Positions 24,527 through 46,629 of a stretch of DNA of 64,000 nt are shown here, piece after piece. The translations under genes were made by a program, and so were the position numbers. Location: contig CAZVQB010000002.1 of NCBI GenBank assembly GCA_964629235.1, positions 4,339 through 68,338 of the forward strand, read 5' to 3'. Position 1 is the stretch's first letter. Each line of letters begins with the position of its first letter. A model generated the notes under the pieces. That model ran no database searches and had not been told where the DNA came from. It saw nothing but the letters and a program-made list of their open reading frames with translations. The stretch is from an uncultured Candidatus Saccharibacteria bacterium. GTDB taxonomy: Bacteria; Patescibacteriota; Minisyncoccia; Phycocordibacterales; PALSA-1337.

Positions 24527-25195
24527 ATGAAAATCCTGATTATTGAAGATGATGTAGATATTTCCAGTTTTATAAAAGACAATCTAACTGAAAGTACTTA
24601 TTCCGTAGAAGTCGCAAAGGATGGACCTGATGGATCATTCTTAGCTAGAACAAACTTTTACGATGTCATAATTATGGATTATTCCCTACCATCAAAAGAT
24701 GGTGTTCTAGTATGTGAGGAGATACGTGCTTCTGGCGTCGAAACACCCATAATCTTTTTAACAGTTCATCAAGATATAAAGAAGAAAGTCAAAGCTTTAG
24801 AAAAAGGTGCGGATGACTATATGACCAAACCTTTTTCTATTGAAGAATTAAAAGCAAGAATAAAAGCTTTAGCGCGTAGGCCAAGAAAAATTGAAAGCCC
24901 AATTTTAATAGTAGATGATTTAATCCTAGATACACACAAAAGAACAGTAAAAAGAGGCGAAACGTCTATTTATCTAACGAGAAAAACATATGATCTATTG
25001 GAATACCTTATGAGGAATAAAGGTATTGTACTTTCAAGAGGTTCTATAATGGAATATGTATGGAATTCTGATAGTGACCCATTTTCAAATACTATAGAAG
25101 CACATATACTAAACCTGAGAAAGAAAATAAATGTGAAGGGTAAAAAGGATATACTAAAGAATATTCCAGGAAGAGGTTATATTATGGGGTCCTAA
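24527..25195 (+). CDS. OmpR-family two-component response regulator (receiver + winged-helix); no histidine kinase adjacent
   Basis: MKILIIEDD, the phospho-acceptor context VIIMDYSLP, MTKPF, and a C-terminal trans_reg_C-like wHTH (NTIEAHILNLRKKI). Confidence 0.85.
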   Translation: MKILIIEDDVDISSFIKDNLTESTYSVEVAKDGPDGSFLARTNFYDVIIMDYSLPSKDGVLVCEEIRASGVETPIIFLTVHQDIKKKVKALEKGADDYMTKPFSIEELKARIKALARRPRKIESPILIVDDLILDTHKRTVKRGETSIYLTRKTYDLLEYLMRNKGIVLSRGSIMEYVWNSDSDPFSNTIEAHILNLRKKINVKGKKDILKNIPGRGYIMGS

Positions 25196-27428
25196 ATTTA
25201 CCTTCTTGTATTTGCTTAATAGCGTCATCAACCTGAGATTTTATAAGCGGGAATCTTTCTTTTGCTTTTTTTAACAATTCAATAGCCTGATATTCTTGCT
25301 TATTTAATAGATAAGTATAAGCTAGAGATGAATACACTTCTTGATTATCTGGATCTTTTGCTAATATCTTTTTGTATATTTCGATAGCTTTATCATATTG
25401 TTTTGACAATACATAAGCGTTTATAACTCTTGGATCACTAAATACCTCGAGATCATCTCCAAAAATTTTCTTTGCTTTTGCTTCTTCACCTGCTGTTATT
25501 AGAGCTGTAACATAAGTAGTCTTGGCTATTGGATTATCTGTTGATGATTGATATGCTTTATCCAATATCTCAACCGCCTCCTTATTTTTACCAATATTTA
25601 AATAATTAACAGCAAGTTCAAATATTATACTTTGTTTATTTGGAGAAAGTTCATTTGCTTTTTCAAGTAATGGGGTGGCAGTATTGAAATCTCTAATAGC
25701 GTTATAATAACTTCCACCAATTATGTATATTCTAGCGTCTTTCGGTGTACTCTTTATTTGATTTTCGATTTCCTTTTTTGCCAAATCATAGAATGCTGCC
25801 TTTTTATCTTGTTGAATCTGTGGGTCTTGTATTACATTAGCAGAACAGTTCAACAATTGCTCAACAGCCTCTTGGTTTGCAACTGTTTGACCAAGTTTAA
25901 ATACTTTTTCAAACGGCACCACAGATACAGTTTGAGGATTTGAACAAGCAATTAGCGCTCCGATTAATCTTGTATTCGCTTGTATAGGTCGGACATTTAC
26001 AAAATACATTGATGCAACAAATAGAATCACTACAATAGGTACATACACATAATCTCTTATTGTTTCAGCATCTTCAGATATTGATTTGCTGTAATTTTCA
26101 AATATAGACAAATCCTTATTCTTTCTTAGTGAATGAACAAAAGCGAGTAATGTGAAGAACATTATATAACTTGTTTGATTGTCGAATACGAACACATTAT
26201 GTATTGCATATCCAACTAGTAGACCGATTAGTATTGACTTTTCTCCAATCGTCTTTTCACTCTTAATAATAAAAATTAGGGAGATTAAATATAGCGCAAG
26301 ATATGCAAGTAATCCTAATATTCCTCCAGCAACAAACCAGTCTAAGAAAACACTGTGTGCTCGATCAAACCACTGTTCATGCTTCCACATTTCTGGATTG
26401 TAGTGTGAATTGAATATGTAGTTAAAATTTTCTTGCCCAACTCCGATAATTGCTGTCTTTGGACTCTCAACAACCCCCTTTATTGCCATAGGCCAGATAA
26501 ATCTTCTTGCTTGGGTCTTTGTATCTGAAATTGATATTGAAGCCAATCTTCCTAGTACTTCATTCTTTTGAATCCAGTTGGCATTTCTATTGAAGTAGAA
26601 TAATACACCGACAACAATCACAAAGATAATAATTGAACCTGAAAATATTCTACTTTTATTTGATTGACCATTATTCTTTCTACCAAAAATTGTATAAATA
26701 GCACAAGAAACAATGATTGCAATTGTCCAACCTATAATAGTTCCTCGAGTTGCTGTCTGAAACATTATAAAAGAGAAAAATGCCGCAGCAATAGAGTATG
26801 AATAGAACAAATGTTTCTTTGCAAAATAACTTATTGCTAGGTATGCAGAAATAAAAGCATTGAACAACATATAAACAGCCATATATGCAGAGTTACCTAG
26901 TGATGCATCAACTCTTCCTCCTTGGTGTGTTTCTGCCCAACCAAAAAATTGTGTTAAACCATAAAGTGCTGTTATCAAACCTGAAATAATTACAACATTG
27001 AAAAATTTGTGCCAACTTTCTTTTGTTTTTAAGACCGAAGACAAAACCATGAAATAACCCCAAAGGTGGACTATCATGAGCCAACCTTCCATTCTCTCAA
27101 AGTTTGACCAGATACTTCTCAGTGGATTTAATCCAGCGAGATCAGCAATCAAAGCAATGAAAGCAAATATACCTATAGAAACAGAGATCGCATTACACTT
27201 TGGAAGAACACTTTTATCTGTTCCAACAATACTTGTACCTTTTTCTCTGAAGATAAGGATTAGCCACAGAGCAAAAACAATTTCAACAATTATTCTAAAA
27301 GCAAACCCTTTACCTGTTATAAATGGAAAAAATAAAGAATTAACAACGTAAGTTGGAATAAATGGAATTACTGCTAAACCGATAATAATTGCGTATTTAA
27401 TTAAAGTATTTATTGTTGAATTGTTCAT
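25182..27428 (-). CDS. O-antigen ligase-like (Wzy_C) polytopic membrane protein with C-terminal TPR repeats
   Basis: The 748-aa ORF has about 12 TM helices and a clear Wzy_C signature, FDRAHSVFLDWFVAGGILGLLAY (H-N/S-x-x-L...GIIG). The C-terminal ~280 aa are TPR-like repeats. Confidence 0.7.
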   Translation of the reverse strand: MNNSTINTLIKYAIIIGLAVIPFIPTYVVNSLFFPFITGKGFAFRIIVEIVFALWLILIFREKGTSIVGTDKSVLPKCNAISVSIGIFAFIALIADLAGLNPLRSIWSNFERMEGWLMIVHLWGYFMVLSSVLKTKESWHKFFNVVIISGLITALYGLTQFFGWAETHQGGRVDASLGNSAYMAVYMLFNAFISAYLAISYFAKKHLFYSYSIAAAFFSFIMFQTATRGTIIGWTIAIIVSCAIYTIFGRKNNGQSNKSRIFSGSIIIFVIVVGVLFYFNRNANWIQKNEVLGRLASISISDTKTQARRFIWPMAIKGVVESPKTAIIGVGQENFNYIFNSHYNPEMWKHEQWFDRAHSVFLDWFVAGGILGLLAYLALYLISLIFIIKSEKTIGEKSILIGLLVGYAIHNVFVFDNQTSYIMFFTLLAFVHSLRKNKDLSIFENYSKSISEDAETIRDYVYVPIVVILFVASMYFVNVRPIQANTRLIGALIACSNPQTVSVVPFEKVFKLGQTVANQEAVEQLLNCSANVIQDPQIQQDKKAAFYDLAKKEIENQIKSTPKDARIYIIGGSYYNAIRDFNTATPLLEKANELSPNKQSIIFELAVNYLNIGKNKEAVEILDKAYQSSTDNPIAKTTYVTALITAGEEAKAKKIFGDDLEVFSDPRVINAYVLSKQYDKAIEIYKKILAKDPDNQEVYSSLAYTYLLNKQEYQAIELLKKAKERFPLIKSQVDDAIKQIQEGKFRTP

Positions 27429-27463: not shown

Positions 27464-28411
27464 CTATTGAAATTTCTTTAATTTATTGGCTATAAATATA
27501 TCAGTATCTCTTCTAGATTCATAAGTCATACCTCCAGTATGTGGAGCTATAATTACATTTGGATTTTTTCTTGCAAACTTTACTAGTGGATGATTCTTGC
27601 AACTATTTTTTGTAAATAAAATCTCACCATCAAGAACGTCAGCTGCATATCCAGCAATCTTTTTCTGTTTTATTACAGTCATCAAATCACCTTCATGAAC
27701 GATCTTACCTCTTGAAGTATTTATTAAATAAGCATTTTTTTTCATAAGACTCATAGTCTTTTTATTGAAAAGGAATTCTGTTTCTGGATTCAAATGTATG
27801 TGTATAGAAATAAAATCACTTTTCTTTAAAAGATCGTTAAAACCAACCTTTTTCCAATTTAGATTTGATGATTCGACTTTTGGATCAGTAAATATAACTT
27901 TCATACCCAAGGCTTCGCCGTATATAGCCATCCACCTTCCGAGTCTTCCAAGACCAACTATTCCTAAAGTTTGACCGTTCAATGAGTGTCCTTTGAACTT
28001 TTCTCTATTCCATTCCCCTTTTAAAACAGACTGGACTGAACTTGGAATATGCCTTGAAGAAGATATGAGTAATCCCAAAGCTAGTTCAGCGGTACCAGTA
28101 ATAGTATTTAAGAAATCATCTTCACCTTTTAGACTAAGAACTTTTACACCTTTTTCTTCAGCGTATTTTATATCAATATGATCCAATCCTGTAGTTGCTG
28201 TAACAAGAAATTTAAGATTTTTTGCTTTTGACAAAACTTCTTTATTAAAATTTAGTCCCAAACCACAGACCACTACATCGTATTTTTCTATTTTTTTTGA
28301 TAGTTCTTGATTTGTAGGTATAACATAATCAACCTTACCTAAAGTATTTAAGATTTTCTTTGCCTCCGGATCAAAATCCTTTCCGATTGTATTTAGTATT
28401 CTGTATGCCAT
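27464..28411 (-). CDS. D-isomer-specific 2-hydroxyacid dehydrogenase family, NAD-binding
   Basis: The 315-aa ORF has a GxGxxG Rossmann motif (GIVGLGRLGRWMA) and the catalytic-type motifs NTSRG and HTGG. Confidence 0.8.
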   Translation of the reverse strand: MAYRILNTIGKDFDPEAKKILNTLGKVDYVIPTNQELSKKIEKYDVVVCGLGLNFNKEVLSKAKNLKFLVTATTGLDHIDIKYAEEKGVKVLSLKGEDDFLNTITGTAELALGLLISSSRHIPSSVQSVLKGEWNREKFKGHSLNGQTLGIVGLGRLGRWMAIYGEALGMKVIFTDPKVESSNLNWKKVGFNDLLKKSDFISIHIHLNPETEFLFNKKTMSLMKKNAYLINTSRGKIVHEGDLMTVIKQKKIAGYAADVLDGEILFTKNSCKNHPLVKFARKNPNVIIAPHTGGMTYESRRDTDIFIANKLKKFQ

Positions 28412-28425: not shown

Positions 28426-30306
28426 CTAAAACTTAAATCCTTTTTTCTTTAATTCCTTCAGCATATATTCTGCTATAATCCAATCGAGTGGATAATCAAT
28501 ATCTACCGATCTATCCTTAGGTACAATATATCCTGCGACCTTATCTCCATAAAGCTTATTTTCTTTCATAATTAAATCCCTTCTCATAGAGTATATTGCT
28601 GCACTTCTCTTATACGCTACAGGCAGATCTTGTCTTCTTGTACCCTCTACTTCTGGAACTGAATATGCACTAATGAAATCTCCTTCGAGTTTTTTAATTT
28701 TAATTGGATTCACATTACTTGGAACTTCAACTATTGATACAGCACTATCTGCTTTTGTATCTATAAGTTTTTGAATTGTTCCATCGATATCATCTATAGT
28801 TCTAAATGGTGAAGTTGGTTGAAGTATAACTACATAATCGATAGTAATATTATTTTTCTTTTCATAAAAATCAATTGCATGTTGCATTACCGGAAGATGT
28901 GGAGTTCCATCTTGAGCCAATTCTTTTGGTCTCATAAAAGGTACATCTGCTCCGTACTTCTTACATACATCAGCAATTTCTTTGTCATCTGTTGAAACAA
29001 TAAGATGATTTATCAATTTGCTCTTCTTTGCAGCATCGATTGTATAAGCAATAAGAGGTTTATTGCCAAGTTTCTTTATATTCTTACCCGGAATGCCTTT
29101 TGATCCTCCGCGAGCGGTTATAACACCAAGGACATTTGGAGTTCTATATTCCCTATCAACATGTTCTTCTGTAAGTGGTTCGAATTTCTTAATATCTTTT
29201 ATTATTTTTTTATCCAAAATATCATGAAAAAAATTTGAAAAAATTCCATTTAGATGAAGTCTTGGTCTCATAGCATAGACCATATCACTGGTGATTATAG
29301 TTCCAGCTTTAATATCTCTTGATGCAACAAGTGTTTTATTGAAATAAGGTCTAAACTTATTTTGTGCACCTTCCAATTCTTTTTCCTTTTGACCATAGAA
29401 AATATTTGTATCTATTTTCTTATATTCATTTTTCTTAATACCAGAGACTAGTTGTTTCATTTCTTCTGGAGTAACTGAAGCTTTATGATCTGAACCCCAA
29501 AGACCTCGATCTAGAGAAAAATGTTTTTCTATAACCTGTGCACCCATTTTTACTGCAGCTAAAGGAATAGTATTGTCTCCAACTGAATGATCAGAAAAAC
29601 CAATGATTGCATGAGGATATTTTTCTTTAAAATATTCTATAGTAGAAAGATTAAATGCTTCTGGAGGACATGGATATTCACTAACGCAATATAGAATAAT
29701 AATTGGTGACCCACGCTTTGTAATATAGTTGACAACGTCATCCAATTCCTTGTGACTAACCATTCCTGTTGAAATGATTATTGGTTTTTGCGTTTTCGTT
29801 AAAAAATCCAAAAGAACATGATCCTGAACATCTCCAGAACCTACTTTCCAAAAAGGTACATCTAGATTTTCAAGTTTAACCGCTGCCATTCTAGACATCG
29901 GAGTTGAGAAGAATATAATTCCTTTTTTTTCTGAATATCTTTTTATTTCTTTGAAAAATTCTATAGGTGCTTCTTCTGTATTTCTTTTAACCCAAGAATA
30001 TCTATCACTACCTTTAAAGTGCGGAGAAACGACATTTATATTTGCTTGTTCATCTTCAACCTCATGAGTTTGAAACTTCACAGCATGTGCACCTGCTTTT
30101 ACTGCTTCATCAATAAGCTTTTTTGCATTCTTAATATAGACTTTTAGAGGTTGAGATTCTTGTGTTTGTATAAAATTCTTACCGATTTCAGCAATAACAA
30201 AAACTTTATCCTTTGATATGATTTTAGAGATAGCGTGAGGCTTCACTATTTTTGAATTTTTATTCTTGCCGGCTTTATAGGATTTAACAGGCTTTTTTAT
30301 TTTCAT
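28426..30306 (-). CDS. Bifunctional nonulosonic (sialic-acid-like) acid synthase NeuB domain fused to CMP-nonulosonate cytidylyltransferase NeuA domain
   Basis: The N-terminal ~360 aa match NeuB (VIAEIGKNF, TIM barrel, C-terminal SAF-like segment). The C-terminal ~230 aa match acylneuraminate cytidylyltransferase (VLGVITARGGSKGIPGKNIKKLGNKPLIAYTIDAA). Confidence 0.8.
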   Translation of the reverse strand: MKIKKPVKSYKAGKNKNSKIVKPHAISKIISKDKVFVIAEIGKNFIQTQESQPLKVYIKNAKKLIDEAVKAGAHAVKFQTHEVEDEQANINVVSPHFKGSDRYSWVKRNTEEAPIEFFKEIKRYSEKKGIIFFSTPMSRMAAVKLENLDVPFWKVGSGDVQDHVLLDFLTKTQKPIIISTGMVSHKELDDVVNYITKRGSPIIILYCVSEYPCPPEAFNLSTIEYFKEKYPHAIIGFSDHSVGDNTIPLAAVKMGAQVIEKHFSLDRGLWGSDHKASVTPEEMKQLVSGIKKNEYKKIDTNIFYGQKEKELEGAQNKFRPYFNKTLVASRDIKAGTIITSDMVYAMRPRLHLNGIFSNFFHDILDKKIIKDIKKFEPLTEEHVDREYRTPNVLGVITARGGSKGIPGKNIKKLGNKPLIAYTIDAAKKSKLINHLIVSTDDKEIADVCKKYGADVPFMRPKELAQDGTPHLPVMQHAIDFYEKKNNITIDYVVILQPTSPFRTIDDIDGTIQKLIDTKADSAVSIVEVPSNVNPIKIKKLEGDFISAYSVPEVEGTRRQDLPVAYKRSAAIYSMRRDLIMKENKLYGDKVAGYIVPKDRSVDIDYPLDWIIAEYMLKELKKKGFKF

Positions 30307-30457
30307 ATGTTATATCCTATGTTATTTGGTGATTTTATTCAATATTAAATAGCTAATATTGACAAATATATATATTAATGATAAGGTTTTAAAAAATTTT
30401 GTTCTTTTATATATGATTAAAGAAAATTGGAGGAAGTGGGCTGTACTCGAAGGTCTG

Positions 30458-31348
30458 ATGAAGACAGCTTCAAGTTCATTTCAAAAGATTGCTGGTAGTG
30501 CATCGAGTAACTTTGCTGGCACATTACTTGTGGCTGGTATAATTGGTTTGACTCAAGTGATCTTTGCGTTAACGTATCTCTTGATAAAGAAAGAGGGATT
30601 ACTTATTGATAGAAAGGGAATCTTCGGTTCCATGCTATTCGGACTTGTTGCCTTTAGTAGTACAGTATTCGGTATCATAACCTTTCTTAAGGGTGGTGAT
30701 GTCTCGGTAAACACATTCATCATAACCCTATCAATTGTACCAGGGATGATCATTGATATCGTGTTTTTTAAATACAAACCACGTAATCAAGAGTGGCTTG
30801 GAATGATCATTGCAATTATTGCAGGTTGGGCGGTCTTAAACTTCCCAACAACAAACATCAAATCATTACCAACATGGGTTTGTTTCTCATTTGGTAATAT
30901 GTTGTGCTTATCAATCAACCAAGGTATATCTCAAAAGATAAAGAACATATCACCTATGTTCAAAAATTTTTGGGGTGGTATGGTTGCACTTATACTGGCG
31001 ACTACTGTCATAATATTGATCGGTAGAAGTTCTTTGTTTTTGAGTTTTACAGACAATAAGATTTTATGGTTCACATCTGCATTGATTGGACTTATAGTCA
31101 TTGCAATGTGGTCATTCAACTTATTGAGCTATAGGGACGGAGCGAGTATTGCACTAAAGAAGTTAGTCATGAGTAGTACATACTTATTAGGTGCCATGCT
31201 ACTTGGTTATATTATCTTTCAAGAGAAGATAACCATTGGCAAACTAGTTGCTATTCCTCTCTTTGCCATTGCCTATGTGCTTATGGATAGGAAAGCCTAC
31301 GATTTTATTTTCACTTCAACAACAAAAAGTGAGGTGCACCAAATATAA
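30458..31348 (+). CDS. DMT-superfamily (EamA-like, duplicated 4-5 TM halves) transporter; start uncertain (TTG 30359 / ATG 30413 / ATG 30458)
   Basis: Ten predicted TM helices in two repeat units. GC is about 40%, clearly above the flanking neu genes. It is bounded by a terminator. Confidence 0.45.
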   Translation: MKTASSSFQKIAGSASSNFAGTLLVAGIIGLTQVIFALTYLLIKKEGLLIDRKGIFGSMLFGLVAFSSTVFGIITFLKGGDVSVNTFIITLSIVPGMIIDIVFFKYKPRNQEWLGMIIAIIAGWAVLNFPTTNIKSLPTWVCFSFGNMLCLSINQGISQKIKNISPMFKNFWGGMVALILATTVIILIGRSSLFLSFTDNKILWFTSALIGLIVIAMWSFNLLSYRDGASIALKKLVMSSTYLLGAMLLGYIIFQEKITIGKLVAIPLFAIAYVLMDRKAYDFIFTSTTKSEVHQI

Positions 31349-31360: not shown

Positions 31361-31390
31361 AATCCTCATGGAAACATGAGGATTTTTTAT
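31361..31390 (+). terminator. Rho-independent terminator of the DMT transporter gene, overlapping the neuC stop codon
   Basis: AATCCTCATG-GAAA-CATGAGGATT followed by TTTTTAT. Confidence 0.6.
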
Positions 31391-32544
31391 TCAACAAATG
31401 TCTTTTGAGTATAAAGAGGTACAGTAGCAATAACTTCTGCGATCTTTTTACTTGTACTTTCTGAAAAATATAATTTTGATGATTCGTATCTACCCTTTTT
31501 GACTTGTTTCTGTATAGCCTTTTTTATTTCTTCTACATTATGATCAACAGTAATAACATTTTCTGCACTCAATCTCTTGAATTGTCTATTTCCAATATTT
31601 ACAACAGGTAAACCCATAAAAGAAGACTCTTTTATTCCAGCTGAAGAATTCCCTATCAAACATAGACTGTTGTTTAACAACCAAATAAAATCCTTTGGAC
31701 CCATATAACGCATAAAGCGTATTTTATGTCCTTTAACTTCATCCTTAAATATTCTAAGTTCATGTGATATATCTTCTGCACCCGCATCAGCATTTGGCCA
31801 AAACCAGAGTGTTGGAATCTTTAGACTATGTACTGCATCAAGTATCTTTTTTGTATTTTCATGTACATGTTTAACATCCATAATATCAGGATGATACATT
31901 ACCATCAGATATCCTTTACTGAGATCGAACATCGCTCCACTTCCAGTAGTATTTAAATCAAATTTATGTTTTTTGCTTGATAATTTCTTTACCACTTCAA
32001 TTTCTGGACTACCGAAATTAAAAACGTGTGAGTCTTTTTCTCCTAGTCTCAATACTCTTTTCCTTGCTGGCTCATTTGTTGTAAAGTGAATATGAGAAAG
32101 CTTCGTGATAGCGTGTCTTACACTTTCATCTATTGATCCAGATACATCACCACCTTCTATATGTGCTATTGGAATAGATAAATATGCAGCAGCAATTGTA
32201 GCTGACAGAACTTCAAATCTATCACCTCTTACCACAACAACATCAGGTTTAATCTGATTAAAAAGTGTAGTAAATTCTATTATTCCAAGTCCTGTCGTTT
32301 TTGCTTTTACGATTGTGTCATTACCTTCTAGATTAAAATGAAGTTCATATAACTTATCATATCCATCATCAGTTAATAACTTTTTAATATCTGCAAGTTT
32401 AGATGTATAGCGAGACAATAGAGCTGTACCGCCAACTACTATATGTAGGTCAATATCTTTTCTTTTCTTTAGTTCTTCTAGAATAAGAAAGTTACGACTG
32501 TAGTGTATAAAACTTGTAATAACGAAACAGACTTTTCTCTTCAT
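31387..32544 (-). CDS. neuC: UDP-N-acetylglucosamine 2-epimerase (NeuC/WecB family; hydrolysing type likely)
   Basis: The 385-aa ORF starts MKRKVCFVITSF and carries VVRGDRFEVLSATIAAAYLSIPIAHIEGGDVSG, the epimerase_2 signature. Confidence 0.8.
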   Translation of the reverse strand: MKRKVCFVITSFIHYSRNFLILEELKKRKDIDLHIVVGGTALLSRYTSKLADIKKLLTDDGYDKLYELHFNLEGNDTIVKAKTTGLGIIEFTTLFNQIKPDVVVVRGDRFEVLSATIAAAYLSIPIAHIEGGDVSGSIDESVRHAITKLSHIHFTTNEPARKRVLRLGEKDSHVFNFGSPEIEVVKKLSSKKHKFDLNTTGSGAMFDLSKGYLMVMYHPDIMDVKHVHENTKKILDAVHSLKIPTLWFWPNADAGAEDISHELRIFKDEVKGHKIRFMRYMGPKDFIWLLNNSLCLIGNSSAGIKESSFMGLPVVNIGNRQFKRLSAENVITVDHNVEEIKKAIQKQVKKGRYESSKLYFSESTSKKIAEVIATVPLYTQKTFVE

Positions 32545-32547
32545 AGT

Positions 32548-33531
32548 CTAGCTAATATGCAGTATTTTTCGCAAAAATGCAAATCTATTTGAGTATCTTA
32601 TTAGATATACTATTTTAACCAAAATTGGTGATAGAGACATGCGCGCTTTTAGATAAATACTCTTCGGGATTTCTATATCTTTTGATAATGTATCCTTCCT
32701 TGCAACCAAACGTATATGATGAGTATTCAATCCATCCTGTTTTTGCTTTTTAATTTGTTCTTGATTCTTTCCTTCATCAACATCCATATAAACAATTACG
32801 AAACCTGCTTTTTTACACATTAAAGAAAGTGTTTCTGGTGTAAACATATATACATGGTCGATCTGCACTCCTGATTGAAGTTTTCCCATTCTTCTTACTT
32901 GATGTCTCCAATTTTTTACCGCAAGGAAAATATGTCCTCCTGGTTCTAAAGCTTCGTGTGACCAATTTAGAAATTTCATTGGATCCAAAAGATGATTTAA
33001 ACTTTGAACACATAGAATATTTTTTACTTTATTCTTAATGTCCATATTCACATCCTCAAAAAGTCCACGAATCGTCTTTACGCCTTTTGACTCAGCATAA
33101 CCCGATTCTTCAAGCGAAGGTTCAATACCTAGTAGTTCTAGATTTTTCCTAGACTCTCTCATACCAAAAAGTATTCCACCCGTACTTGAACCAACATCAA
33201 TAGTAAGTCCATCTTTTACATATTTACCCATATAACCGACTATAGCCTTGCCGAATCTTCTAGCATTCTCAAAATTCTTCTCTAAATCTGAATTGTATTC
33301 ACGATTCTTTATACTTGCCCTGTCTTGTCTATAAAAAGACATATAGTATTCATCATAGTCTTTAGCGGTCATACGTGGATTAATAAAAACCAAACTACAC
33401 TTCTTACACATTACTGTATTTGCTTTAAGATTGTTTACACTTCTTTTAACAATTACCTTAAAATCATTTCCACCACAAAGATTACATGCTATGTATTCAA
33501 GATTCTTTTTATTGTAGTCAAATCCTTCCAT
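32548..33531 (-). CDS. Class I SAM-dependent methyltransferase with N-terminal Cys4 zinc-ribbon (copy 1)
   Basis: CNLCGG...CKKCSLVFINPR zinc ribbon, then the SAM motif IDVGSSTGG. Paralog of 36216-37163. Confidence 0.7.
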   Translation of the reverse strand: MEGFDYNKKNLEYIACNLCGGNDFKVIVKRSVNNLKANTVMCKKCSLVFINPRMTAKDYDEYYMSFYRQDRASIKNREYNSDLEKNFENARRFGKAIVGYMGKYVKDGLTIDVGSSTGGILFGMRESRKNLELLGIEPSLEESGYAESKGVKTIRGLFEDVNMDIKNKVKNILCVQSLNHLLDPMKFLNWSHEALEPGGHIFLAVKNWRHQVRRMGKLQSGVQIDHVYMFTPETLSLMCKKAGFVIVYMDVDEGKNQEQIKKQKQDGLNTHHIRLVARKDTLSKDIEIPKSIYLKARMSLSPILVKIVYLIRYSNRFAFLRKILHIS

Positions 33532-33532
33532 T

Positions 33533-34891
33533 TTATTTAATTAAATTAATTATATAATCTGCAATTCTTTTCCCTGATAGACCGTCTGTAAATGTTGTCT
33601 GTTCTTTTACCAGGTTCTCTCTTTCTTTACTCTTTACTGATGGATCATCTAAATATTTATTTATTGAATCTAATAACTCTTGTCTATTATTTACCAAATC
33701 AACAGCATTAGTCTTTAATACATTCTTATAATGCCAAGTTCTGTAGTATTGTACAGGAGATTTTAACAATTTTGGAATTTTATTTATTTCAAAATTTATA
33801 TTTATTACTGGTTTGTCAAAAATACTTGCATCAATACTAATACTTGAAGCATAACAAACCAAGACAGACATATGATAAAGAGTATCCTGTAAATGATCTA
33901 GATCTGCTTTATTCATATCCCAATCAACACCTCTTTTTGTACCAAAACGTATACCGGGTTTATCACATTTTAGATCTGGTCTCTTTGATATTTCTTCTTC
34001 ATCAACAAAATCATTTGGTTGGAATCTTACCAACAATTCACATTCATATTTCAATTCTTTTGAGTAAATCATTTCTTGTAATAGGTCGATTATATCCCAA
34101 TCAGCAGAACTAAATGCTCTACCCATCGGAGCATATACTATCAATTTTTTATCACTAGGAATTTTTATTTTATTAAAGAATTCTTCTCTTAGAATAGGTT
34201 TCCTTGTATAGAAAAAATCATATTGTGGTAAACCACTAACAAAAATATCTTGTTCATTCATTTCATTAAAATCCATCATCTCTCCTTTGACGATATCGTT
34301 AAAAACTATAGCTTTATCAGGCAATAATCTTAAAATACATCTTGAAGTAACCTTATCCCAAGAGTTTATATAACCTATTGTTTTTATTTTTCTCTTTTTT
34401 GCTTCTCTTAATAGATTGATTTCAATTTCTTCAAATAGATGGGCGGTAAAAACAAGATCTGGTGAATATTTATCAAAATACTCACTATATGTATTGTCTT
34501 TTATTAAAAGAAAATCCAAATATCTCACAATTTTTCTTATCAAAGACCAAGCAAGAATATAGTTCGATACTTTACCAAAATAGTATCCAAAAAATCTCCC
34601 TTCATAATCACTGACCATTTTTCGTTTTAAATTTGTAGTTTCAGTTCTAAGTAAAGTGAACTTCATCTTTGAGAAAAAACTATCGAACATTGGTATGGAT
34701 TTTTGTTCAACAAATTCAAATACTATTCTTGGATCATTGAATTCATTTTTATAATAATCTACTTTTTGTTGCGATTTTGTAAAAAGAACAATTCTTATAT
34801 CTTTATTAAAAAGAAGATTCTCTAAAATAGGTGTTCGTAGAATATTCTTTACTTCTACACCTTCAAAAATTGTTATAAATATTGTTTTCAT
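33533..34891 (-). CDS. Putative TagB/TagF-like (CDP-glycerol glycerophosphotransferase family-like) polymer transferase, paralog 1
   Basis: The 452-aa ORF has a C-terminal half with the R-x-(Q/H)-P and YASSISIDASIFDKPVININ pattern, similar to the TagF HP / TDYSS motifs. One of three paralogs. Confidence 0.4.
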   Translation of the reverse strand: MKTIFITIFEGVEVKNILRTPILENLLFNKDIRIVLFTKSQQKVDYYKNEFNDPRIVFEFVEQKSIPMFDSFFSKMKFTLLRTETTNLKRKMVSDYEGRFFGYYFGKVSNYILAWSLIRKIVRYLDFLLIKDNTYSEYFDKYSPDLVFTAHLFEEIEINLLREAKKRKIKTIGYINSWDKVTSRCILRLLPDKAIVFNDIVKGEMMDFNEMNEQDIFVSGLPQYDFFYTRKPILREEFFNKIKIPSDKKLIVYAPMGRAFSSADWDIIDLLQEMIYSKELKYECELLVRFQPNDFVDEEEISKRPDLKCDKPGIRFGTKRGVDWDMNKADLDHLQDTLYHMSVLVCYASSISIDASIFDKPVININFEINKIPKLLKSPVQYYRTWHYKNVLKTNAVDLVNNRQELLDSINKYLDDPSVKSKERENLVKEQTTFTDGLSGKRIADYIINLIK

Positions 34892-36216
34892 TTATTTATC
34901 AAATCTAATATTGCATTGAAAAGCCTTTCGGTATTTTTACCATCCAAAAATCCTGCCTCCATCTCAGCTAATTTCTTTCTTTTATCTTTATCTAGACTAG
35001 GATTTTTAACATACTCATCTAAATAATCTTTGAATTGCCGCATAGATTCAGCAAGCTTCACTCCCCCACTTTCTATTACTGGAATAAAATTATTATAATC
35101 GTAATATCTTCTTATACTATCGAAATATTCTCTCTTCTCATATCCATCAAAACCAAAAAGAATTATAGGCTTATTCATATATGCTGAATCAAGAACAAAA
35201 GTTGATGGTGAACTGATAACTAACTCTGACCAGAATAGGGTTTCAGCCAAATGCACATCGTCATTTTTATCGATTTCTGTAATCTTGATATTATCGAACT
35301 TTGGTTTTGCTCTATCATATATAACCTTTAGATTTGGAAATTTTGGATTATTCTCTAATTCTCTAACATAATCTCCTGGTGGAAGCCTGACTAGAAGTTG
35401 ATAATCTTTTGGTAAAGTCTTATCCAAAATATCTACAATATCTCTATCAACTGTATTATTTCTCAAATATCGATCACCTAACGGTATGAAGAGTGCTAAC
35501 TTTTTATCCTGATCACCACCTATTTTTTCTATAAATTCTTTTCTATTTGTAAACACATTTTTCTTATAATCATCATAGTGTGGAATTCCAATAACAGATA
35601 TCATTGATTCTCTTATTTCTTGAAGACATATCGCTTCATCTTTAATGATATTATTCCATACTAACAATTTATTAGGTATAACTCTTATGAGACCTTTTGA
35701 AGTAAGGTTGTCCCAAGAACGAACCATTCCTGCAGTTTTAATATTCGAAAAAATACCCTCATTCAATATTGCAATATCAAGTTCACTTTGGATATCGGTA
35801 GAAAATATGCAATCAGGTTTATACTGATCAAATAATTTCTCAAATCTTTTATTTTTATAACTTACTCTTTCTAGAAATCTTACGAATTTATGACCTATTT
35901 TATTTGATAATAAATAAGTTAAATACATTCCGCTACCTTTCATTTCTGTCTTTCTTTTTATATAAAGCGTTTTCGTATTTAATGCTGTTAGTGAAAGATA
36001 CTTTAATAGATTTTCTCTCTTGGTATTTTTAAATTCGAATCCTTCAACAATAACGTCATCTCTCTCAAAATTTTCTTTAAAAAAACTTTCTTTATTTTTT
36101 GGAGCAATTATTACAACTTTTATATTATTTTTAACAAGTACATCCAGGATTCCAGATGAAAGAATATTTCTTGATATGAGTGGATGAAAACTAGTTATAA
36201 AAATTGTCTTTTTCAT
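34888..36216 (-). CDS. Putative TagB/TagF-like polymer transferase, paralog 2
   Basis: The 442-aa ORF starts MKKTIFITSF and carries LVRLPPGDY...ISSPSTFVLDSAYMNKPIILF. Confidence 0.4.
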   Translation of the reverse strand: MKKTIFITSFHPLISRNILSSGILDVLVKNNIKVVIIAPKNKESFFKENFERDDVIVEGFEFKNTKRENLLKYLSLTALNTKTLYIKRKTEMKGSGMYLTYLLSNKIGHKFVRFLERVSYKNKRFEKLFDQYKPDCIFSTDIQSELDIAILNEGIFSNIKTAGMVRSWDNLTSKGLIRVIPNKLLVWNNIIKDEAICLQEIRESMISVIGIPHYDDYKKNVFTNRKEFIEKIGGDQDKKLALFIPLGDRYLRNNTVDRDIVDILDKTLPKDYQLLVRLPPGDYVRELENNPKFPNLKVIYDRAKPKFDNIKITEIDKNDDVHLAETLFWSELVISSPSTFVLDSAYMNKPIILFGFDGYEKREYFDSIRRYYDYNNFIPVIESGGVKLAESMRQFKDYLDEYVKNPSLDKDKRKKLAEMEAGFLDGKNTERLFNAILDLINK

Positions 36217-37163
36217 TATCTTTTAAGGAATTGCTGCAGACGTACAGTAAGTAAATATCTTAAATAAATATAATATTTGTTTATTGATAATAAAGTAAAA
36301 ATATAATTACCTTTACCTATTGTTAAATCCTTAAAAGGAGTTTTATTCAATCTTTTGGCCACAATGCGAATATGCACTCTTGGAATTCCTTGCATGATCT
36401 TCTTCTTTGTATATTCATCAGCTTCAAAGAAAAGGATTTCAAATCCAGCTGACGTTATAAAATCTCTCAGAACTTCAGGCGTATACATATAGACATGGTC
36501 AATCTTTACACTATTTTCATACTTTCCTGCTTTTTGTAATTGTTGCCTGAAATTCATAACTTCAACAACAAGAAGTCCATCATCAAAAAGAGATTCATGT
36601 GCCCATTTGAAAAAGTATCTCGGATCCAAATAGTGATTAAGAGCTTGAGTACTAACTATAACTGCAAATTTTTCTTTTTTATTATGATCTTCGATTAAAG
36701 CATGATAAGTCTTTATTCCTTGAGAATTCGCATAATCCGATTCTACCTTTGACGGCTCAAGACCTATTACTTCTCTATTTAAATATACTTTCATTCCTTT
36801 CAAAACACCTCCGACTCCAGAGCCAACTTCCATTATATTTCCTTTTACTTTTAGATATGGTGATATAAGCTCGCCCAAAAATTTGCCATGTCCTATAGTC
36901 GATTCAAATAATCTCTTGCAATCAAAATCTGAACCTGCCTCGCCATTGTTTATAGTCTTTTGTCTGTATTCTTCTTCATAATAGAATTTATAACCAGACT
37001 TCGTCATTCTCGGATTTATATATATAAGACCACACTTTTTACAAATAACAGAGTTTAAAGCTAGACCATCTGTACCCTTTTTTGACAGGATTTTATAATT
37101 GTTACTTAAACAGAAACTGCAAACAATATTCTCCTTTTCAATTGTATTGTATGGGAAAGACAT
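36216..37163 (-). CDS. Class I SAM-dependent methyltransferase with N-terminal Cys4 zinc-ribbon (copy 2)
   Basis: CSFCLS...CKKCGLIYINPR zinc ribbon, then MEVGSGVGG. Paralog of 32548-33531. Confidence 0.7.
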   Translation of the reverse strand: MSFPYNTIEKENIVCSFCLSNNYKILSKKGTDGLALNSVICKKCGLIYINPRMTKSGYKFYYEEEYRQKTINNGEAGSDFDCKRLFESTIGHGKFLGELISPYLKVKGNIMEVGSGVGGVLKGMKVYLNREVIGLEPSKVESDYANSQGIKTYHALIEDHNKKEKFAVIVSTQALNHYLDPRYFFKWAHESLFDDGLLVVEVMNFRQQLQKAGKYENSVKIDHVYMYTPEVLRDFITSAGFEILFFEADEYTKKKIMQGIPRVHIRIVAKRLNKTPFKDLTIGKGNYIFTLLSINKYYIYLRYLLTVRLQQFLKR

Positions 37164-37224
37164 TTTATGATAAACAAGTATATCACAACAAAATATTGCT
37201 TCAATTTTAAAAATTAATAAAAGA

Positions 37225-38619
37225 CTAGATAATTTTTTCTAAAAAATCTACATTTCTCTTATAAGACAAACCGTCTCTAAAGAAAATAAAATCATTGAAT
37301 ACTTTTTCTTGTTGCTTCTTTTTTACATCGTGATTTTTCAAACAAATATTAACATGTTCAACGATATTATCGAAACTCTTTGAGAGGAAAACTGCATCAG
37401 CATCAACAATTGGCTTATAGTGACGGAAATTGTATGCTCTATGATACTTTTCTGGATAATCTATATTTACAACTGGTTTTCCAAAGATAAAAGATTCGAG
37501 GGTCATTGTTGAAACGTAGTTTATAACTACATCAGAATATTTTAGAGTTAACTTTAGATTCAAAATATCATCCTCATGTATTTCAATTCTCGTACCCATT
37601 TCTTGTGAAAGCAATTTGCCCGGATATTCAACATGTAGATTTGGTATTTTACTATCAATATATACTTTAAATTTATCAAACTCCTCTTTTGGATGCATTC
37701 GCACTAGAATATTTGGTTTACCATCAAATTTGCCTTGATCACGAGCTTTCAATAGTTCTCCAAGAAGAATATCTTCATCAGGATAATTCCCTTTTGTAAC
37801 TGTAGTTATAAGTATAGTTTTTTCTTTTGGATTTAATCCTTTACTCAAAAGGAAAGTTTCTCTTGAGAGTTCACTTGGATTATTTACAGAATAAGAATCA
37901 AAACGCATTGTACCTGAGACAAATACATTGTTTTCTGAATATCCATATTCTTTTACTGCAGTATTTTTTATTATTTTATTCCAAACTATTAGATAATCTG
38001 GTCTTCTAAAATGCACGCCTCCATTATGAAGATTGTCCCAACTAAAATTTATCGCTGCAGTCTTTATACCAAATTTCTTTGCATATATTATTGCTTCAGC
38101 ATCAGGATGACTGAATCCTGGAGTTGCTGTTAGAAACATTACTGGTTTGTATTCTTTAATCTTTTCTTCAAGGGCTTTTGATCTTGGTATAAAAATTTTC
38201 TCTAGTTTAGTAAATAAATCATTTGTCCAAAAAGATGCAGGGGCAATATAAGAAAAATACTTTAAAAATCTTCTTCTCCAATCTTTCATACCCTTTTCTT
38301 TATTCCTAACTACCACCGGTTCAAAATCGTATTTACGGATTATTGAATACCTAAAATATTTACCAAATAGATTCCAAAATCCTGGATTTTGCAATTTCCA
38401 AGGAACATAAGTCACATTTTCTGATTTAAAATATGGCTTATTGTCTTCACAAAAAGCTTGTGGAGACATGAATACCACTACTTTGTATTTTGTTGATAAA
38501 TACTTTATATAATCTGTACGTAAAAAATCCGATGAGTAAACAAAGTTAGAAATAAAAAGAAATACTGTTTTCATAGAAAGGTATTGTAGCATATATGTTA
38601 TAATCGTTATTATTACCAC
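37225..38619 (-). CDS. Putative TagB/TagF-like polymer transferase, paralog 3
   Basis: The 464-aa ORF carries ILVRMHPKE...INYVSTMTLESFIFGKPVVNI. Confidence 0.4.
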   Translation of the reverse strand: MVIITIITYMLQYLSMKTVFLFISNFVYSSDFLRTDYIKYLSTKYKVVVFMSPQAFCEDNKPYFKSENVTYVPWKLQNPGFWNLFGKYFRYSIIRKYDFEPVVVRNKEKGMKDWRRRFLKYFSYIAPASFWTNDLFTKLEKIFIPRSKALEEKIKEYKPVMFLTATPGFSHPDAEAIIYAKKFGIKTAAINFSWDNLHNGGVHFRRPDYLIVWNKIIKNTAVKEYGYSENNVFVSGTMRFDSYSVNNPSELSRETFLLSKGLNPKEKTILITTVTKGNYPDEDILLGELLKARDQGKFDGKPNILVRMHPKEEFDKFKVYIDSKIPNLHVEYPGKLLSQEMGTRIEIHEDDILNLKLTLKYSDVVINYVSTMTLESFIFGKPVVNIDYPEKYHRAYNFRHYKPIVDADAVFLSKSFDNIVEHVNICLKNHDVKKKQQEKVFNDFIFFRDGLSYKRNVDFLEKII

Positions 38620-39738
38620 ATGAAAAAACCTATTCTGCTACTCTGGATAATTTCATCATGGATTCTCTATCCCTTTTTTAGTCTATCTTCAAAAATTAAG
38701 AGCAAAAAACTAGGTGAGAAAAAGAGAGTGCTTGTATTGCCACAACTTTCTAGAATTGGAGATATCGTCTGTTCTACTGGTGTATTTTATAATATTAAAA
38801 AATCATATCCTGATAGTTATGTATCTGTATTAGTATCGAAAAAAGCATTTGGAATTATAAAAAACAACAAAAGAATTGATAATTTTATTATTTATGAAGA
38901 CTATTCATTTTTTGGTTTAATAAATAAAATTAAATCAGAAAATTTCAACTATTCAATAAACCTTACAGCAACATCCATAAATACTTGTTTAACTCTTTGG
39001 AGTTGTATAAATCATAGAATCAAGACTGTAGTAGAAACTCCTCCAATTACAGAAAGACTTACTGATTGTATGTCGAATCATCGATTACTATACAGGAATC
39101 ATACATATTTACCACTTCACCATATAAAGTTGTTGAATTTCATTGGAATAAATAATCCTGAGGATAAAAAAGAAATATACCTAAGTGGTACAGCGGAAAT
39201 AAAGGCAAATGATTTTGTTAAAAACTTTGGAGAAAATAAAAAAATAATAGGAATAAGCATAACTGCAGGAAATAAAATAAAGGAACTTGGTGATGAAAGA
39301 TTTGAAAAATTAATCAATAAACTTTTAGAAAATCAGGATAACATAGTTTGCTGTATAGGATCTAAAAATGACTCAGAAAGGATTGATAAAATAATATCCA
39401 GCGTGAATAATCCTCGTTTCATTAAAGCAACTGATTTTAATTTGGAAGAATTACCATCTCTTATGAAAACATTCTCGCTTTATATTGCGGTTGATACTGG
39501 TCCTATTTATATTGCGCATGCCCTAGGAATACCTCTGATAGACATAATTGGTCCAGTAGATCCGAATGAACAACCACCAAAAGACAGTAAGAGTATACAA
39601 ATTCTTCCTAGAGGAGATATAAAACCTAGTTCATTTGTATTTAAGAAACGTGGAACTAAAGATGAAATTATTTCAGCAATACGAAATACTGATATAAATG
39701 ATATTTATAAAGCCGCAGTAATACTATTGAGTAAGTAG
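38620..39738 (+). CDS. Glycosyltransferase family 9 (LPS heptosyltransferase-like)
   Basis: The C-terminal motif DTGPIYIAHALGIPLIDIIGPVDP matches the GT9 D-S/T-G-P-x-H-L-A...G-P-T signature. Confidence 0.7.
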   Translation: MKKPILLLWIISSWILYPFFSLSSKIKSKKLGEKKRVLVLPQLSRIGDIVCSTGVFYNIKKSYPDSYVSVLVSKKAFGIIKNNKRIDNFIIYEDYSFFGLINKIKSENFNYSINLTATSINTCLTLWSCINHRIKTVVETPPITERLTDCMSNHRLLYRNHTYLPLHHIKLLNFIGINNPEDKKEIYLSGTAEIKANDFVKNFGENKKIIGISITAGNKIKELGDERFEKLINKLLENQDNIVCCIGSKNDSERIDKIISSVNNPRFIKATDFNLEELPSLMKTFSLYIAVDTGPIYIAHALGIPLIDIIGPVDPNEQPPKDSKSIQILPRGDIKPSSFVFKKRGTKDEIISAIRNTDINDIYKAAVILLSK

Positions 39739-46625: not shown

Positions 46626-46629
46626 ATAT

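What the first reader, a model, noticed from the sequence alone, without database searches (positions are those of the whole stretch)
28426..30306. Single-polypeptide NeuB-NeuA fusion (nonulosonic acid synthase + CMP-activating cytidylyltransferase)
The 626-aa ORF joins a NeuB-like TIM-barrel synthase with a SAF-like segment to a C-terminal cytidylyltransferase domain with the GGSKGIPGKN motif. Synthesis and CMP activation of the nine-carbon sugar would then occur in one protein. No frameshift or stop separates the two halves. The fusion acts as a Rosetta-stone link that strengthens the pathway assignment. It may also channel the intermediate.
Basis: seen in the sequence. Interest (0 to 1): 0.55.

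Follow-up and report, generated by a model that had tools for sequence, protein, structure and literature searches.

The report
Recently fused sialic-acid synthase–activase gene
In one lineage of the tiny episymbiotic Saccharibacteria, two neighbouring genes that make and then CMP-activate a sialic-acid-like nine-carbon sugar have recently merged into one gene; the merger is real and kept by selection, but similar mergers are common in uncultured microbes, so it is a modest curiosity.

Summary
Window 28426-30306 (minus strand) is an uninterrupted 626-aa ORF with NeuB (aa 64-294), SAF (326-383) and CMP-sugar cytidylyltransferase (394-612) domains.

It is not an assembly artefact. The exact protein sits on 3 contigs, and its 90% cluster holds 15 distinct sequences from four archives.

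Saccharibacteria relatives at 75-77% identity keep neuB and neuA as separate genes 1-4 nt apart. The fusion arose by TAA→TAT/TAC, a 1-nt deletion and ATG→ACT. Two fused alleles differ by dS 0.33-0.52 with dN/dS 0.03-0.05 in both halves.

The architecture is not unique. Among the 150 best 50%-identity representatives, 55 are reverse-order NeuA-NeuB fusions. NeuB-NeuC and NeuB-NeuC-NeuA fusions also occur.

The sugar is unproven. The synthase belongs to a divergent CPR/DPANN clade, below the NeuB/LegI and PseI equivalog cutoffs. It is always coupled to a bona fide NeuC, and no amino-sugar tailoring genes are nearby, so a Neu5Ac-type product is most likely.

A 2-hydroxyacid dehydrogenase is a conserved, unexplained fourth module member. 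Channelling is untested. Interest is modest.

The parts
28426..30306 (-). Fused neuB-neuA ORF, 626 aa (bifunctional NulO synthase / CMP-NulO synthetase)
   Evidence: ORF; Pfam and NCBIfam matches; identical protein on 3 contigs.
29425..30117 (-). NeuB TIM-barrel synthase domain (aa 64-294). Catalytic/metal residues E40, D159 (= N. meningitidis E134, here Asp), H240, E260 and H262
   Evidence: Pfam PF03102, E 4e-66. Residues D159, H240, E260 and H262 mapped through the alignment to N. meningitidis NeuB 1xuu; residue roles from PMC8208679 and, for the metal-binding histidines, from my own knowledge. E40 lies outside the alignment and is assigned by the EIG motif from memory.
29158..29331 (-). 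SAF / antifreeze-protein-like domain of the synthase (aa 326-383), with R347 equivalent to N. meningitidis NeuB R314
   Evidence: Pfam PF08666, 31.3 bits against a cutoff of 21; alignment.
29131..29157 (-). Fusion junction (aa 384-392, DREYRTPNV). Y387 (29146-29148) is the former stop codon, R388 (29143-29145) is the former 4-nt spacer minus one base, and T389 (29140-29142) is the former ATG of neuA
   Evidence: DNA alignment of window, L001, L002 and L003; separate ORFs in L002, L003 and L010.
28471..29127 (-). CMP-NulO cytidylyltransferase domain (aa 394-612). GGSKGIPGKN lies at 29080-29109; the LQPTSP, RRQDLP and DID motifs are conserved
   Evidence: Pfam PF02348, E 9e-28; PDB matches 6ifd, 9ftb, 1eyr and 1qwj.
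31387..32544 (-). NeuC-type UDP-hydrolysing UDP-GlcNAc 2-epimerase, the first pathway step
   Evidence: TIGR03568, 346.5 bits against a cutoff of 235.9; Pfam Epimerase_2.
27464..28411 (-). D-isomer 2-hydroxyacid dehydrogenase, 14 nt downstream of the fusion. It is a conserved fourth member of this clade's module; its role is unknown
   Evidence: Pfam; NCBIfam best hit PGDH at 203 bits, far below the 454 cutoff; synteny in L010, L011, L013, L016, L018 and L019; catalytic motifs intact.
30359..31348 (+). EamA-family transporter gene on the opposite strand, inserted between neuC and the fusion. Seen only in the fused lineage
   Evidence: Pfam. Present in L001 and L019, absent in L002 and L010.
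32548..38619 (-). Two methyltransferases (32548-33531, 36216-37163) and three TagB-like GT-B paralogs (33533-34891, 34888-36216, 37225-38619), which are candidate CMP-NulO-using transferases
   Evidence: PF04464 and PF13489. Weak NF046086 BFO_1060-family hits of 52, 44 and 85 bits against a cutoff of 200. The family's role in Pse/Leg transfer comes from PMC5420450. No invariant His or HP motif.
25182..27428 (-). Wzy_C (O-antigen ligase / O-oligosaccharyltransferase-like) membrane protein with C-terminal TPR repeats, the last gene of the module
   Evidence: Pfam; conserved downstream in L010, L017 and L019.

Best explanation
This is a real, recently evolved fusion of two adjacent native genes, neuB (nonulosonic-acid synthase) and neuA (CMP-nonulosonate synthetase), in one lineage of Candidatus Saccharibacteria.

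Shown:
- The ancestral state is neuB, stop, a 1-4 nt spacer, then neuA in another frame.
- In this lineage the TAA stop became a Tyr codon, one spacer base was lost (which restored the frame), and the neuA start codon was replaced.
- Both halves have since stayed under strong purifying selection.
- No internal start codon could yield a stand-alone NeuA that retains the essential N-terminal motif.

Inferred:
- The chain carries both activities.
- NeuC (the upstream gene) converts UDP-GlcNAc to ManNAc.
- The N-terminal TIM barrel, capped by its SAF domain, condenses ManNAc with PEP to give a Neu5Ac-type nonulosonic acid.
- The C-terminal domain uses CTP to form the CMP-sugar.
- That CMP-sugar feeds the TagB-like transferases, methyltransferases and Wzy_C/TPR protein of the same operon to build a surface glycan.
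- The benefit of fusion is most likely fixed 1:1 co-expression and co-localisation in a streamlined genome, not a dedicated channel.
For: ORF and domains.

Separate genes in relatives: L002 and L003 (75-76% identity, 4-nt spacer, different frames) and L010 (77% identity, 1-nt gap).

Junction changes: TAA to TAT (window) or TAC (L001), a 1-nt deletion, and ATG AAA to ACT CCA.

Replication: identical protein on 3 contigs, a 97% allele in an independent MAG, and 15 distinct cluster members from four archives.

Selection, window against L001: dN/dS 0.032 in the NeuB half and 0.046 in the NeuA half, at dS 0.33 and 0.52. There is no in-frame ATG, GTG or TTG between aa 365 and 430.

Native origin of both halves: the closest NeuB-only and NeuA-only homologs lie on the same contigs, for example the 31,550-bp and 47,212-bp contigs.

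Phylogeny: the fused protein nests inside unfused CPR NeuB sequences, sister to P0002 and P0003.

Catalytic residues are retained.

Pathway: NeuC passes its equivalog cutoff. NeuB-NeuC and NeuB-NeuC-NeuA fusions occur in the same synthase clade. No 4,6-dehydratase, DegT aminotransferase or hexapeptide acetyltransferase was found in the window or in L007-L010, L012 and L019.
Against: - No enzyme assay was possible.
- The synthase half fails both curated equivalog cutoffs: NeuB_NnaB 250.8 against 399.65, and PseI 214.2 against 340.25. It groups away from the characterised N. meningitidis NeuB.
- The cytidylyltransferase half fails the PseF cutoff (176 against 205.7), and NCBIfam showed no competing NeuA or LegF model.
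- A conserved 2-hydroxyacid dehydrogenase and the methyltransferases suggest the final sugar may not be plain Neu5Ac.
- The rest of the genome was not seen, so amino-sugar genes could lie elsewhere.
- The tree is a neighbour-joining tree without support values and contains only one characterised reference.
Confidence: 0.72

Rival explanations
1. The fusion is real, but the pathway makes a nonulosonic (or related ulosonic) acid other than plain Neu5Ac. The conserved 2-hydroxyacid dehydrogenase and the methyltransferases would be integral steps, for example supplying a glyceroyl, lactyl or glycolyl substituent, or an alternative three-carbon donor.
For: - The synthase clade scores only 244-275 bits on TIGR03569, whereas fusions in Leg-type loci pass at 409-459 bits.
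- The clade is separate from N. meningitidis NeuB.
- It carries the E134D substitution and the motif AEIGKNF in place of AEVGVNH.
- The dehydrogenase is contiguous with NeuB-NeuC-NeuA in L016 and L018, and with the fusions in L011, L013 and L019. Its catalytic motifs are intact.
- Methyltransferases recur in these loci.
Against: - NeuC is a clear equivalog (346 bits against 236), and NeuB-NeuC fusions imply a ManNAc-type substrate.
- No amino-sugar tailoring genes occur in six loci.
- The Woesearchaeota loci carry the same synthase clade without the dehydrogenase.
- D-2-hydroxyacid dehydrogenases act on alpha-hydroxy or alpha-keto acids, and no step for such an enzyme is known in any NulO pathway.
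Confidence: 0.25
2. The fusion exists to channel the free nonulosonic acid directly from the synthase to the cytidylyltransferase active site.
For: - Consecutive enzymes have fused repeatedly and independently: NeuB-NeuA, NeuA-NeuB, NeuB-NeuC and NeuB-NeuC-NeuA.
- The linker is almost absent, since the native termini are joined directly.
Against: - Both domain orders exist, and one fusion has a whole NeuC domain between the two halves, so no conserved inter-domain geometry is required.
- Closely related lineages keep separate genes.
- No structural or kinetic data are available.
Confidence: 0.12
3. The fusion is a sequencing or assembly artefact (an indel error merging two adjacent genes), or a decaying read-through in which one half is no longer functional.
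For: Close relatives have two genes only 1-4 nt apart, so a single-base error could in principle merge the frames.
Against: - Three separate changes are needed, not one.
- The two fused alleles use different Tyr codons (TAT and TAC) and differ by dS 0.33-0.52 while keeping the frame.
- dN/dS is 0.03-0.05 in both halves.
- The fusion was found in many independent assemblies.
Confidence: 0.02

Closest known systems
Neisseria meningitidis NeuB (SiaC; PDB 1xuu/1xuz), Neu5Ac synthase
   Same: - Same two-domain build: a TIM barrel plus a C-terminal antifreeze-like/SAF domain.
- Best PDB match at 160 bits.
- The metal-binding histidines (H240, H262), E260 and the SAF arginine (R347 = R314) are conserved.
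   Different: - The window synthase lies in a different major branch of the NJ tree.
- It fails the TIGR03569 equivalog cutoff.
- It has E134D, extra insertions and a Lys-rich N-terminal extension.
- It is fused to NeuA.
Bacterial and mammalian CMP-sialic acid synthetases (V. cholerae 6ifd, N. meningitidis 1eyr, mouse 1qwj)
   Same: Same fold family (PF02348), with the ARGGSKG...KN, LQPTSP, RRQDLP and DID motifs. Matches of 87-118 bits.
   Different: Here it is the C-terminal domain of a synthase fusion. Its sugar specificity is unassigned, since the score lies below the PseF cutoff and there is no NeuA or LegF model to compare with.
Reverse-order NeuA-NeuB (LegF-LegI-like) fusion proteins of uncultured Patescibacteria and DPANN archaea (e.g. 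P0162 = MFA4995849.1; P0017 cluster including HII89193.1, Woesearchaeota)
   Same: The same two activities in one chain. They are abundant: 55 of the 150 best representative clusters. P0017 shares the same divergent synthase clade and sits next to NeuC.
   Different: - Opposite domain order, so an independent origin.
- P0162 sits in a complete legionaminic-type locus with dehydratase, aminotransferase and acetyltransferase genes.
- Its synthase passes the NeuB_NnaB cutoff.
Other natural fusions in sialic-acid pathways: mammalian GNE (epimerase-kinase) and the Leptospira interrogans synthase-phosphatase (PMC3438082)
   Same: Consecutive or adapter steps of the NulO pathway merged into one ORF, and used in the literature as a pathway clue.
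   Different: Different partner domains. Three searches of the held library for a natural synthase-cytidylyltransferase fusion found no paper describing one, and two further searches on NulOs in CPR found nothing relevant.

Membership tests
NeuB family (Pfam PF03102), NulO/sialic acid synthases | Significant match to the TIM-barrel synthase profile above the gathering score | tested here: met
   223.3 bits against a cutoff of 22.1, aa 64-294.
NeuB family, catalytic apparatus | Catalytic Glu residues (Nm E25, E134, E234), metal-binding His residues (Nm H215, H236) and the SAF-domain Arg (Nm R314) | tested here: met
   From the alignment: D159 (the conservative E134D variant, reported in 29% of environmental NeuB and in archaeal/eukaryotic synthases, PMC8208679), H240, E260, H262 and R347. 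E40 lies outside that alignment and is assigned by the EIG motif from memory.
N-acetylneuraminate synthase equivalog (NCBIfam TIGR03569 NeuB_NnaB; in practice also captures LegI-type enzymes) | Whole-protein score at or above the curated cutoff of 399.65 | tested here: not met
   250.8 bits. Fusions from Leg-type loci score 409-459 bits and pass, while the whole window clade scores 244-275 bits.
Pseudaminic acid synthase equivalog (TIGR03586 PseI) | Score at or above 340.25, and a PseB/C/H/G gene context | tested here: not met
   214.2 bits. No PseB, PseC, PseH or PseG-like genes in the window. A NeuC-type epimerase is present instead.
Legionaminic acid pathway (LegI/LegF) | Co-occurrence with a 4,6-dehydratase, an aminotransferase and an N-acetyltransferase (LegB/C/H), in addition to the NeuC-like LegG | tested here: not met
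   None of these genes occurs in the 64-kb window or in L007-L010, L012 and L019. The Leg-type locus L014 has all of them. The rest of the genome was not seen.
CMP-NulO cytidylyltransferases (Pfam PF02348 CTP_transf_3) | Profile match above the gathering score, plus the N-terminal (A/S)RGGSKG...KN CTP-binding motif and the DxD metal site | tested here: met
   98.1 bits against a cutoff of 22.6. ARGGSKGIPGKN lies at aa 398-409, and the LQPTSP, RRQDLP and DID motifs align to 6ifd.
Pseudaminic acid cytidylyltransferase equivalog (TIGR03584 PseF) | Score at or above 205.7 | tested here: not met
   176.3 bits. The Leg-type fusions also score 165-188 bits, so this model does not discriminate between sugar types.
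Canonical bacterial Neu5Ac pathway (NeuC-NeuB-NeuA) | A UDP-hydrolysing UDP-GlcNAc 2-epimerase encoded alongside the synthase and the cytidylyltransferase | tested here: met
   TIGR03568, 346.5 bits against a cutoff of 235.9. NeuC is adjacent or fused in every locus of this clade examined, with the single exception of L013.
Bifunctional enzyme (both activities in one chain) | Demonstrated ManNAc + PEP condensation and CTP-dependent CMP-sugar formation by the 626-aa protein | not testable with these tools
   Only indirect evidence: purifying selection on both halves, and no internal start codon that would allow a separate NeuA.

The most novel reading that the evidence does not exclude
The fused gene belongs to a CPR/DPANN-specific four-enzyme module: a divergent NeuB, NeuC, NeuA and a D-2-hydroxyacid dehydrogenase. 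This module would make a not-yet-described nonulosonic acid derivative rather than plain Neu5Ac, with the dehydrogenase carrying out a pathway step that has no counterpart in the known Neu, Leg or Pse routes. The repeated independent fusions (NeuB-NeuA, NeuA-NeuB, NeuB-NeuC, NeuB-NeuC-NeuA) would then reflect selection for tight coupling of this pathway in ultra-small episymbiont genomes.
Probability: 0.22. Interest if true: 0.55.

Novelty: new variant of a known kind. Interest (0 to 1): 0.3.

Why it matters
The find has three modest uses.

1. It gives a clean, datable example of how a bifunctional enzyme is born: stop-codon loss, a 1-nt deletion and loss of the start codon, with unfused sister lineages still available for comparison.

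2. It shows that Saccharibacteria and many other CPR/DPANN organisms encode a compact route to a CMP-activated sialic-acid-like sugar. That is relevant to how these episymbionts decorate their surface and interact with hosts or host immunity.

3. It provides natural fused enzymes (two-domain, and one three-domain candidate) that could serve as one-pot biocatalysts for CMP-sialic acid synthesis.

The fusion alone does not change understanding of the pathway. The conserved dehydrogenase partner is the part that could.

Tried and rejected
**Full-length structure prediction.** I made two attempts to build a combined alignment of fused, NeuB-only and NeuA-only rows (A2, A4). MAFFT pushed the NeuB-only rows into the NeuA region (19-41% identity where 60-80% was expected). 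I did not submit a fold. A monomer model would not settle dimer geometry or channelling in any case.

**Tree with characterised NeuB, LegI and PseI references.** Only N. meningitidis NeuB could be reconstructed from tool output. PseI (8h2c) and SpsE (1vli) alignments were not displayed, and I did not use sequences from memory. Subtype was judged instead from NCBIfam score calibration and gene context.

**Literature.** Three searches looked for a described natural NeuB-NeuA fusion, two looked for NulOs in Saccharibacteria or CPR, and one covered both CPR and NulO types. They returned only other fusions (the Leptospira synthase-phosphatase) or irrelevant hits. Lewis et al. 2009 (PMC2726416) is not held. 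The large NulO-synthase phylogeny PMC8208679 mentions no fusions.

**Sialyltransferase motifs in the three TagB-like paralogs.** No invariant His or HP motif was found, so their role as NulO transferases rests only on weak BFO_1060-family hits.

**Link between 2-hydroxyacid dehydrogenase and neuB in the literature.** Nothing relevant was found. The PDB search gives only generic PGDH, glyoxylate reductase and McyI relatives.

**Pse-type and Leg-type assignments.** Both were considered and rejected for lack of the defining tailoring genes and because the equivalog cutoffs were not met.
Full report

Yes. The ORF listing returns one ATG-initiated ORF of 626 aa at exactly 28426-30306, on the minus strand.

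Pfam gives three non-overlapping matches:
- NeuB, aa 64-294, E 4e-66.
- SAF, aa 326-383, E 3e-7, above its gathering score.
- CTP_transf_3, aa 394-612, E 9e-28.

The GGSKGIPGKN motif is at aa 400-409. Nothing interrupts the frame.

**2. Organism and locus**

The best DNA-level relatives are three independently assembled 'uncultured Candidatus Saccharibacteria' MAGs. The window has about 32% GC.

The gene sits in a minus-strand glycan operon. In transcription order it contains:
- a GT9-like gene nearby;
- a TagB-like GT-B;
- a methyltransferase;
- two more TagB-like GT-B paralogs;
- a second methyltransferase;
- NeuC (TIGR03568, 346 bits against a cutoff of 236);
- an opposite-strand EamA transporter;
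- the fusion;
- a D-2-hydroxyacid dehydrogenase, 14 nt downstream;
- a Wzy_C + TPR membrane protein.

The TagB-like paralogs hit, weakly, the BFO_1060 family. That is the Tannerella forsythia Pse/Leg-derivative transferase family, which has knockout support (PMC5420450). They lack an invariant His or HP motif, so this role is only a lead.

**3. The fusion is recent and lineage-specific**

In L002 and L003 (75-76% identity) and in L010 (77% identity), neuB and neuA are separate ORFs 1-4 nt apart and in different frames. Only the window, L001 (97% identity) and L019 carry them fused.

The nucleotide alignment shows three changes:
- The stop TAA became a Tyr codon: TAT in the window, TAC in L001.
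- One base of the 4-nt spacer was deleted.
- ATG AAA became ACT CCA.

The fused linker is therefore just the native termini joined together (…EEHVDRE-Y-R-TPNVLGVITARGG…).

The closest stand-alone NeuB proteins (P0002, P0005, P0009) and NeuA proteins (P0312, P0310, P0311) lie on the same contigs as each other. Both halves are therefore native neighbours and not a chimera.

In an NJ tree of the synthase domain, the fused protein nests deep inside unfused CPR sequences, sister to P0002 and P0003.

**4. It is not an artefact, and both halves are maintained**

- The exact protein is on 3 contigs.
- The 90% cluster holds 15 distinct sequences from JGI, ENA, NCBI and Logan. IMG already labels them 'sialic acid synthase SpsE/CMP-N-acetylneuraminic acid synthetase'.
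- Between the two fused alleles, dS is 0.33 (NeuB half) and 0.52 (NeuA half), with dN/dS of 0.032 and 0.046. This is long persistence under strong purifying selection.
- There is no in-frame ATG, GTG or TTG between aa 365 and 430. A separate NeuA that keeps its essential N-terminal ARGGSKG motif therefore cannot be translated.

Catalytic residues map correctly. On N. meningitidis NeuB (residue roles from PMC8208679), the window protein has D159 (= E134, here Asp), H240, E260, H262 and R347 (= R314). E40 (= E25) is assigned from the EIG motif alone, because the alignment starts at Nm residue 34. The NeuA half keeps the ARGGSKG…KN, LQPTSP, RRQDLP and DID motifs when aligned with V. cholerae CMAS.

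**5. How unusual is the architecture?**

Not very. An exhaustive phmmer search of 1.84 billion representatives, classified by domain order, gives for the 150 best hits:
- 55 NeuA-NeuB fusions (reverse order);
- 1 other NeuB-NeuA fusion (P0166, 38% identity);
- 2 NeuB-NeuC fusions;
- 65 NeuA-only proteins;
- 27 NeuB-only proteins.

The Woesearchaeota cluster (P0017, P0018, P0022) is in reverse order, lies next to NeuC, and belongs to the same divergent synthase clade.

P0034 is a NeuB-NeuC fusion. P0008 is a NeuB-NeuC-NeuA fusion with all three pathway enzymes in one 986-aa chain, but it is seen on a single contig only.

Fusion of these consecutive enzymes has therefore happened repeatedly and in different orders. 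The window's order is the rare one.

I found no paper describing such a natural fusion in the held library. Related published fusions join a synthase to a phosphatase (Leptospira, PMC3438082) or an epimerase to a kinase (GNE).

**6. Which sugar?**

This is unproven. The scores fall below every curated subtype cutoff:
- Synthase half: 250.8 bits on NeuB_NnaB (cutoff 399.65) and 214.2 bits on PseI (cutoff 340.25).
- Cytidylyltransferase half: 176.3 bits on PseF (cutoff 205.7).

Calibration shows that fusions in a complete Leg-type locus pass the NeuB_NnaB cutoff at 409-459 bits. One example is P0162, whose locus has NeuC-like, hexapeptide acetyltransferase, DegT aminotransferase and dehydratase genes. 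The whole window clade scores only 244-275 bits. The characterised N. meningitidis enzyme falls in the other major branch of the tree.

Context points to a Neu5Ac-type route:
- NeuC is adjacent or fused in every locus of the clade examined, with the exception of L013.
- No dehydratase, aminotransferase or acetyltransferase gene occurs in the window or in the related loci examined.

I put about 55% on Neu5Ac or a simple derivative of it.

**7. Unexplained partner**

A D-isomer 2-hydroxyacid dehydrogenase follows NeuA directly or within one gene in many loci:
- the window, L001 and L019;
- L002 and L010;
- L011 (the triple fusion);
- L013 (the only other same-order fusion);
- the distant CPR loci L016 and L018, where the order NeuB-NeuC-NeuA-DH is contiguous.

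Its NAD-binding motif and its catalytic Arg and His motifs are intact. Its nearest solved relatives are generic short PGDHs, glyoxylate reductases and McyI.

No known Neu, Leg or Pse pathway uses such an enzyme. It is absent from the Woesearchaeota, Leg-type and Pse-type loci. This is the most interesting loose end.

**8. Mechanism and rivals**

Best supported (see Best explanation): a bifunctional chain made by a neutral-to-mildly-beneficial fusion that fixes 1:1 expression of the two activities.

Channelling is possible but unsupported. Variable domain order, a NeuC domain inserted between the halves in P0008, and functional unfused sisters all argue against a required geometry.

The artefact and pseudogene readings are effectively excluded.

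**9. Verdict**

This is a new architectural variant of well-known enzymes, in a divergent CPR/DPANN clade. Interest is modest (0.3). It would rise if the dehydrogenase-containing module proves to make a new sugar.

Noticed in passing
window 27464-28411 (-); also L011 5707-6666, L013 4496-5452, L016 8975-9910, L018 8953-9915: A D-2-hydroxyacid dehydrogenase is a conserved immediate neighbour of NeuA, or of the fusion, across CPR loci whose synthases are only 38-64% identical to the window's. No known nonulosonic-acid pathway includes such an enzyme. Its catalytic motifs are intact.
   Followed up: partly
L011 2744-5704 (protein P0008, 986 aa): A single polypeptide with NeuB (aa 13-360), NeuC (365-743) and NeuA (753-981), so all three pathway enzymes from UDP-GlcNAc to the CMP-sugar are in one chain. 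It is followed directly by the dehydrogenase. It is seen on one Logan contig only, so it needs confirmation.
   Followed up: partly
L007-L009 and L012 (proteins P0017, P0018, P0022): Candidatus Woesearchaeota (DPANN archaea) carry a reverse-order NeuA-NeuB fusion. Its synthase domain belongs to the same divergent clade as the bacterial CPR enzymes, which suggests transfer between CPR bacteria and DPANN archaea.
   Followed up: partly
window 33533-34891, 34888-36216, 37225-38619 (-): Three paralogous TagB-like GT-B proteins (26-32% identical to each other), interleaved with two methyltransferases. They hit the Tannerella BFO_1060 Pse/Leg-transferase family weakly, but they lack an invariant His or HP motif.
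   Followed up: partly
window 25182-27428 (-): A 748-aa Wzy_C (O-antigen ligase / O-oligosaccharyltransferase-like) protein with C-terminal TPR repeats closes the operon and is conserved in L010, L017 and L019. This is notable in a lineage that, to my knowledge, lacks an outer membrane. It may be a protein O-glycosylation enzyme.
   Followed up: no
window 30359-31348 (+): An EamA-family transporter gene sits on the opposite strand between neuC and the fusion. It occurs only in the fused lineage (window, L001, L019), which also lacks the 340-aa unknown gene found between neuA and the dehydrogenase in L002 and L010.
   Followed up: partly
L001 6966-7904 (+): The 97%-identical MAG carries an extra 312-aa methyltransferase-like ORF between the EamA gene and the fusion, plus a gap of about 490 bp after the fusion. 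Both are absent from the window, so the locus is structurally fluid even between near-identical strains.
   Followed up: partly
L015 2696-5587 (protein P0194, 963 aa): This protein has two tandem NeuB domains (aa 16-363 and 403-712), and the collection's precomputed Pfam annotation also records a CTP_transf_3 hit. It sits next to a GNAT acetyltransferase (PseH-like) and a Glyco_tran_28_C protein (PseG-like) fused to FrhB domains.
   Followed up: no
window 38620-39738 (+): A GT9 (heptosyltransferase-family) gene lies at the edge of the glycan locus and is conserved in L010. That is unexpected for an organism that, to my knowledge, has no LPS.
   Followed up: no
window 44222-53679: A second glycan-assembly block: GT2, GtrA-like, TylF-type and other methyltransferases, four GT4 genes, a GFO/IDH/MocA oxidoreductase and an FAD oxidoreductase.
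   Followed up: no
window 53684-62189 (-): A TraG/VirD4-like coupling ATPase, followed by type IV pilus-type genes (T2SSF and two T2SSE ATPases, one with an MshEN domain), lies next to the glycan loci. Pilins could be glycosylation targets.
   Followed up: no
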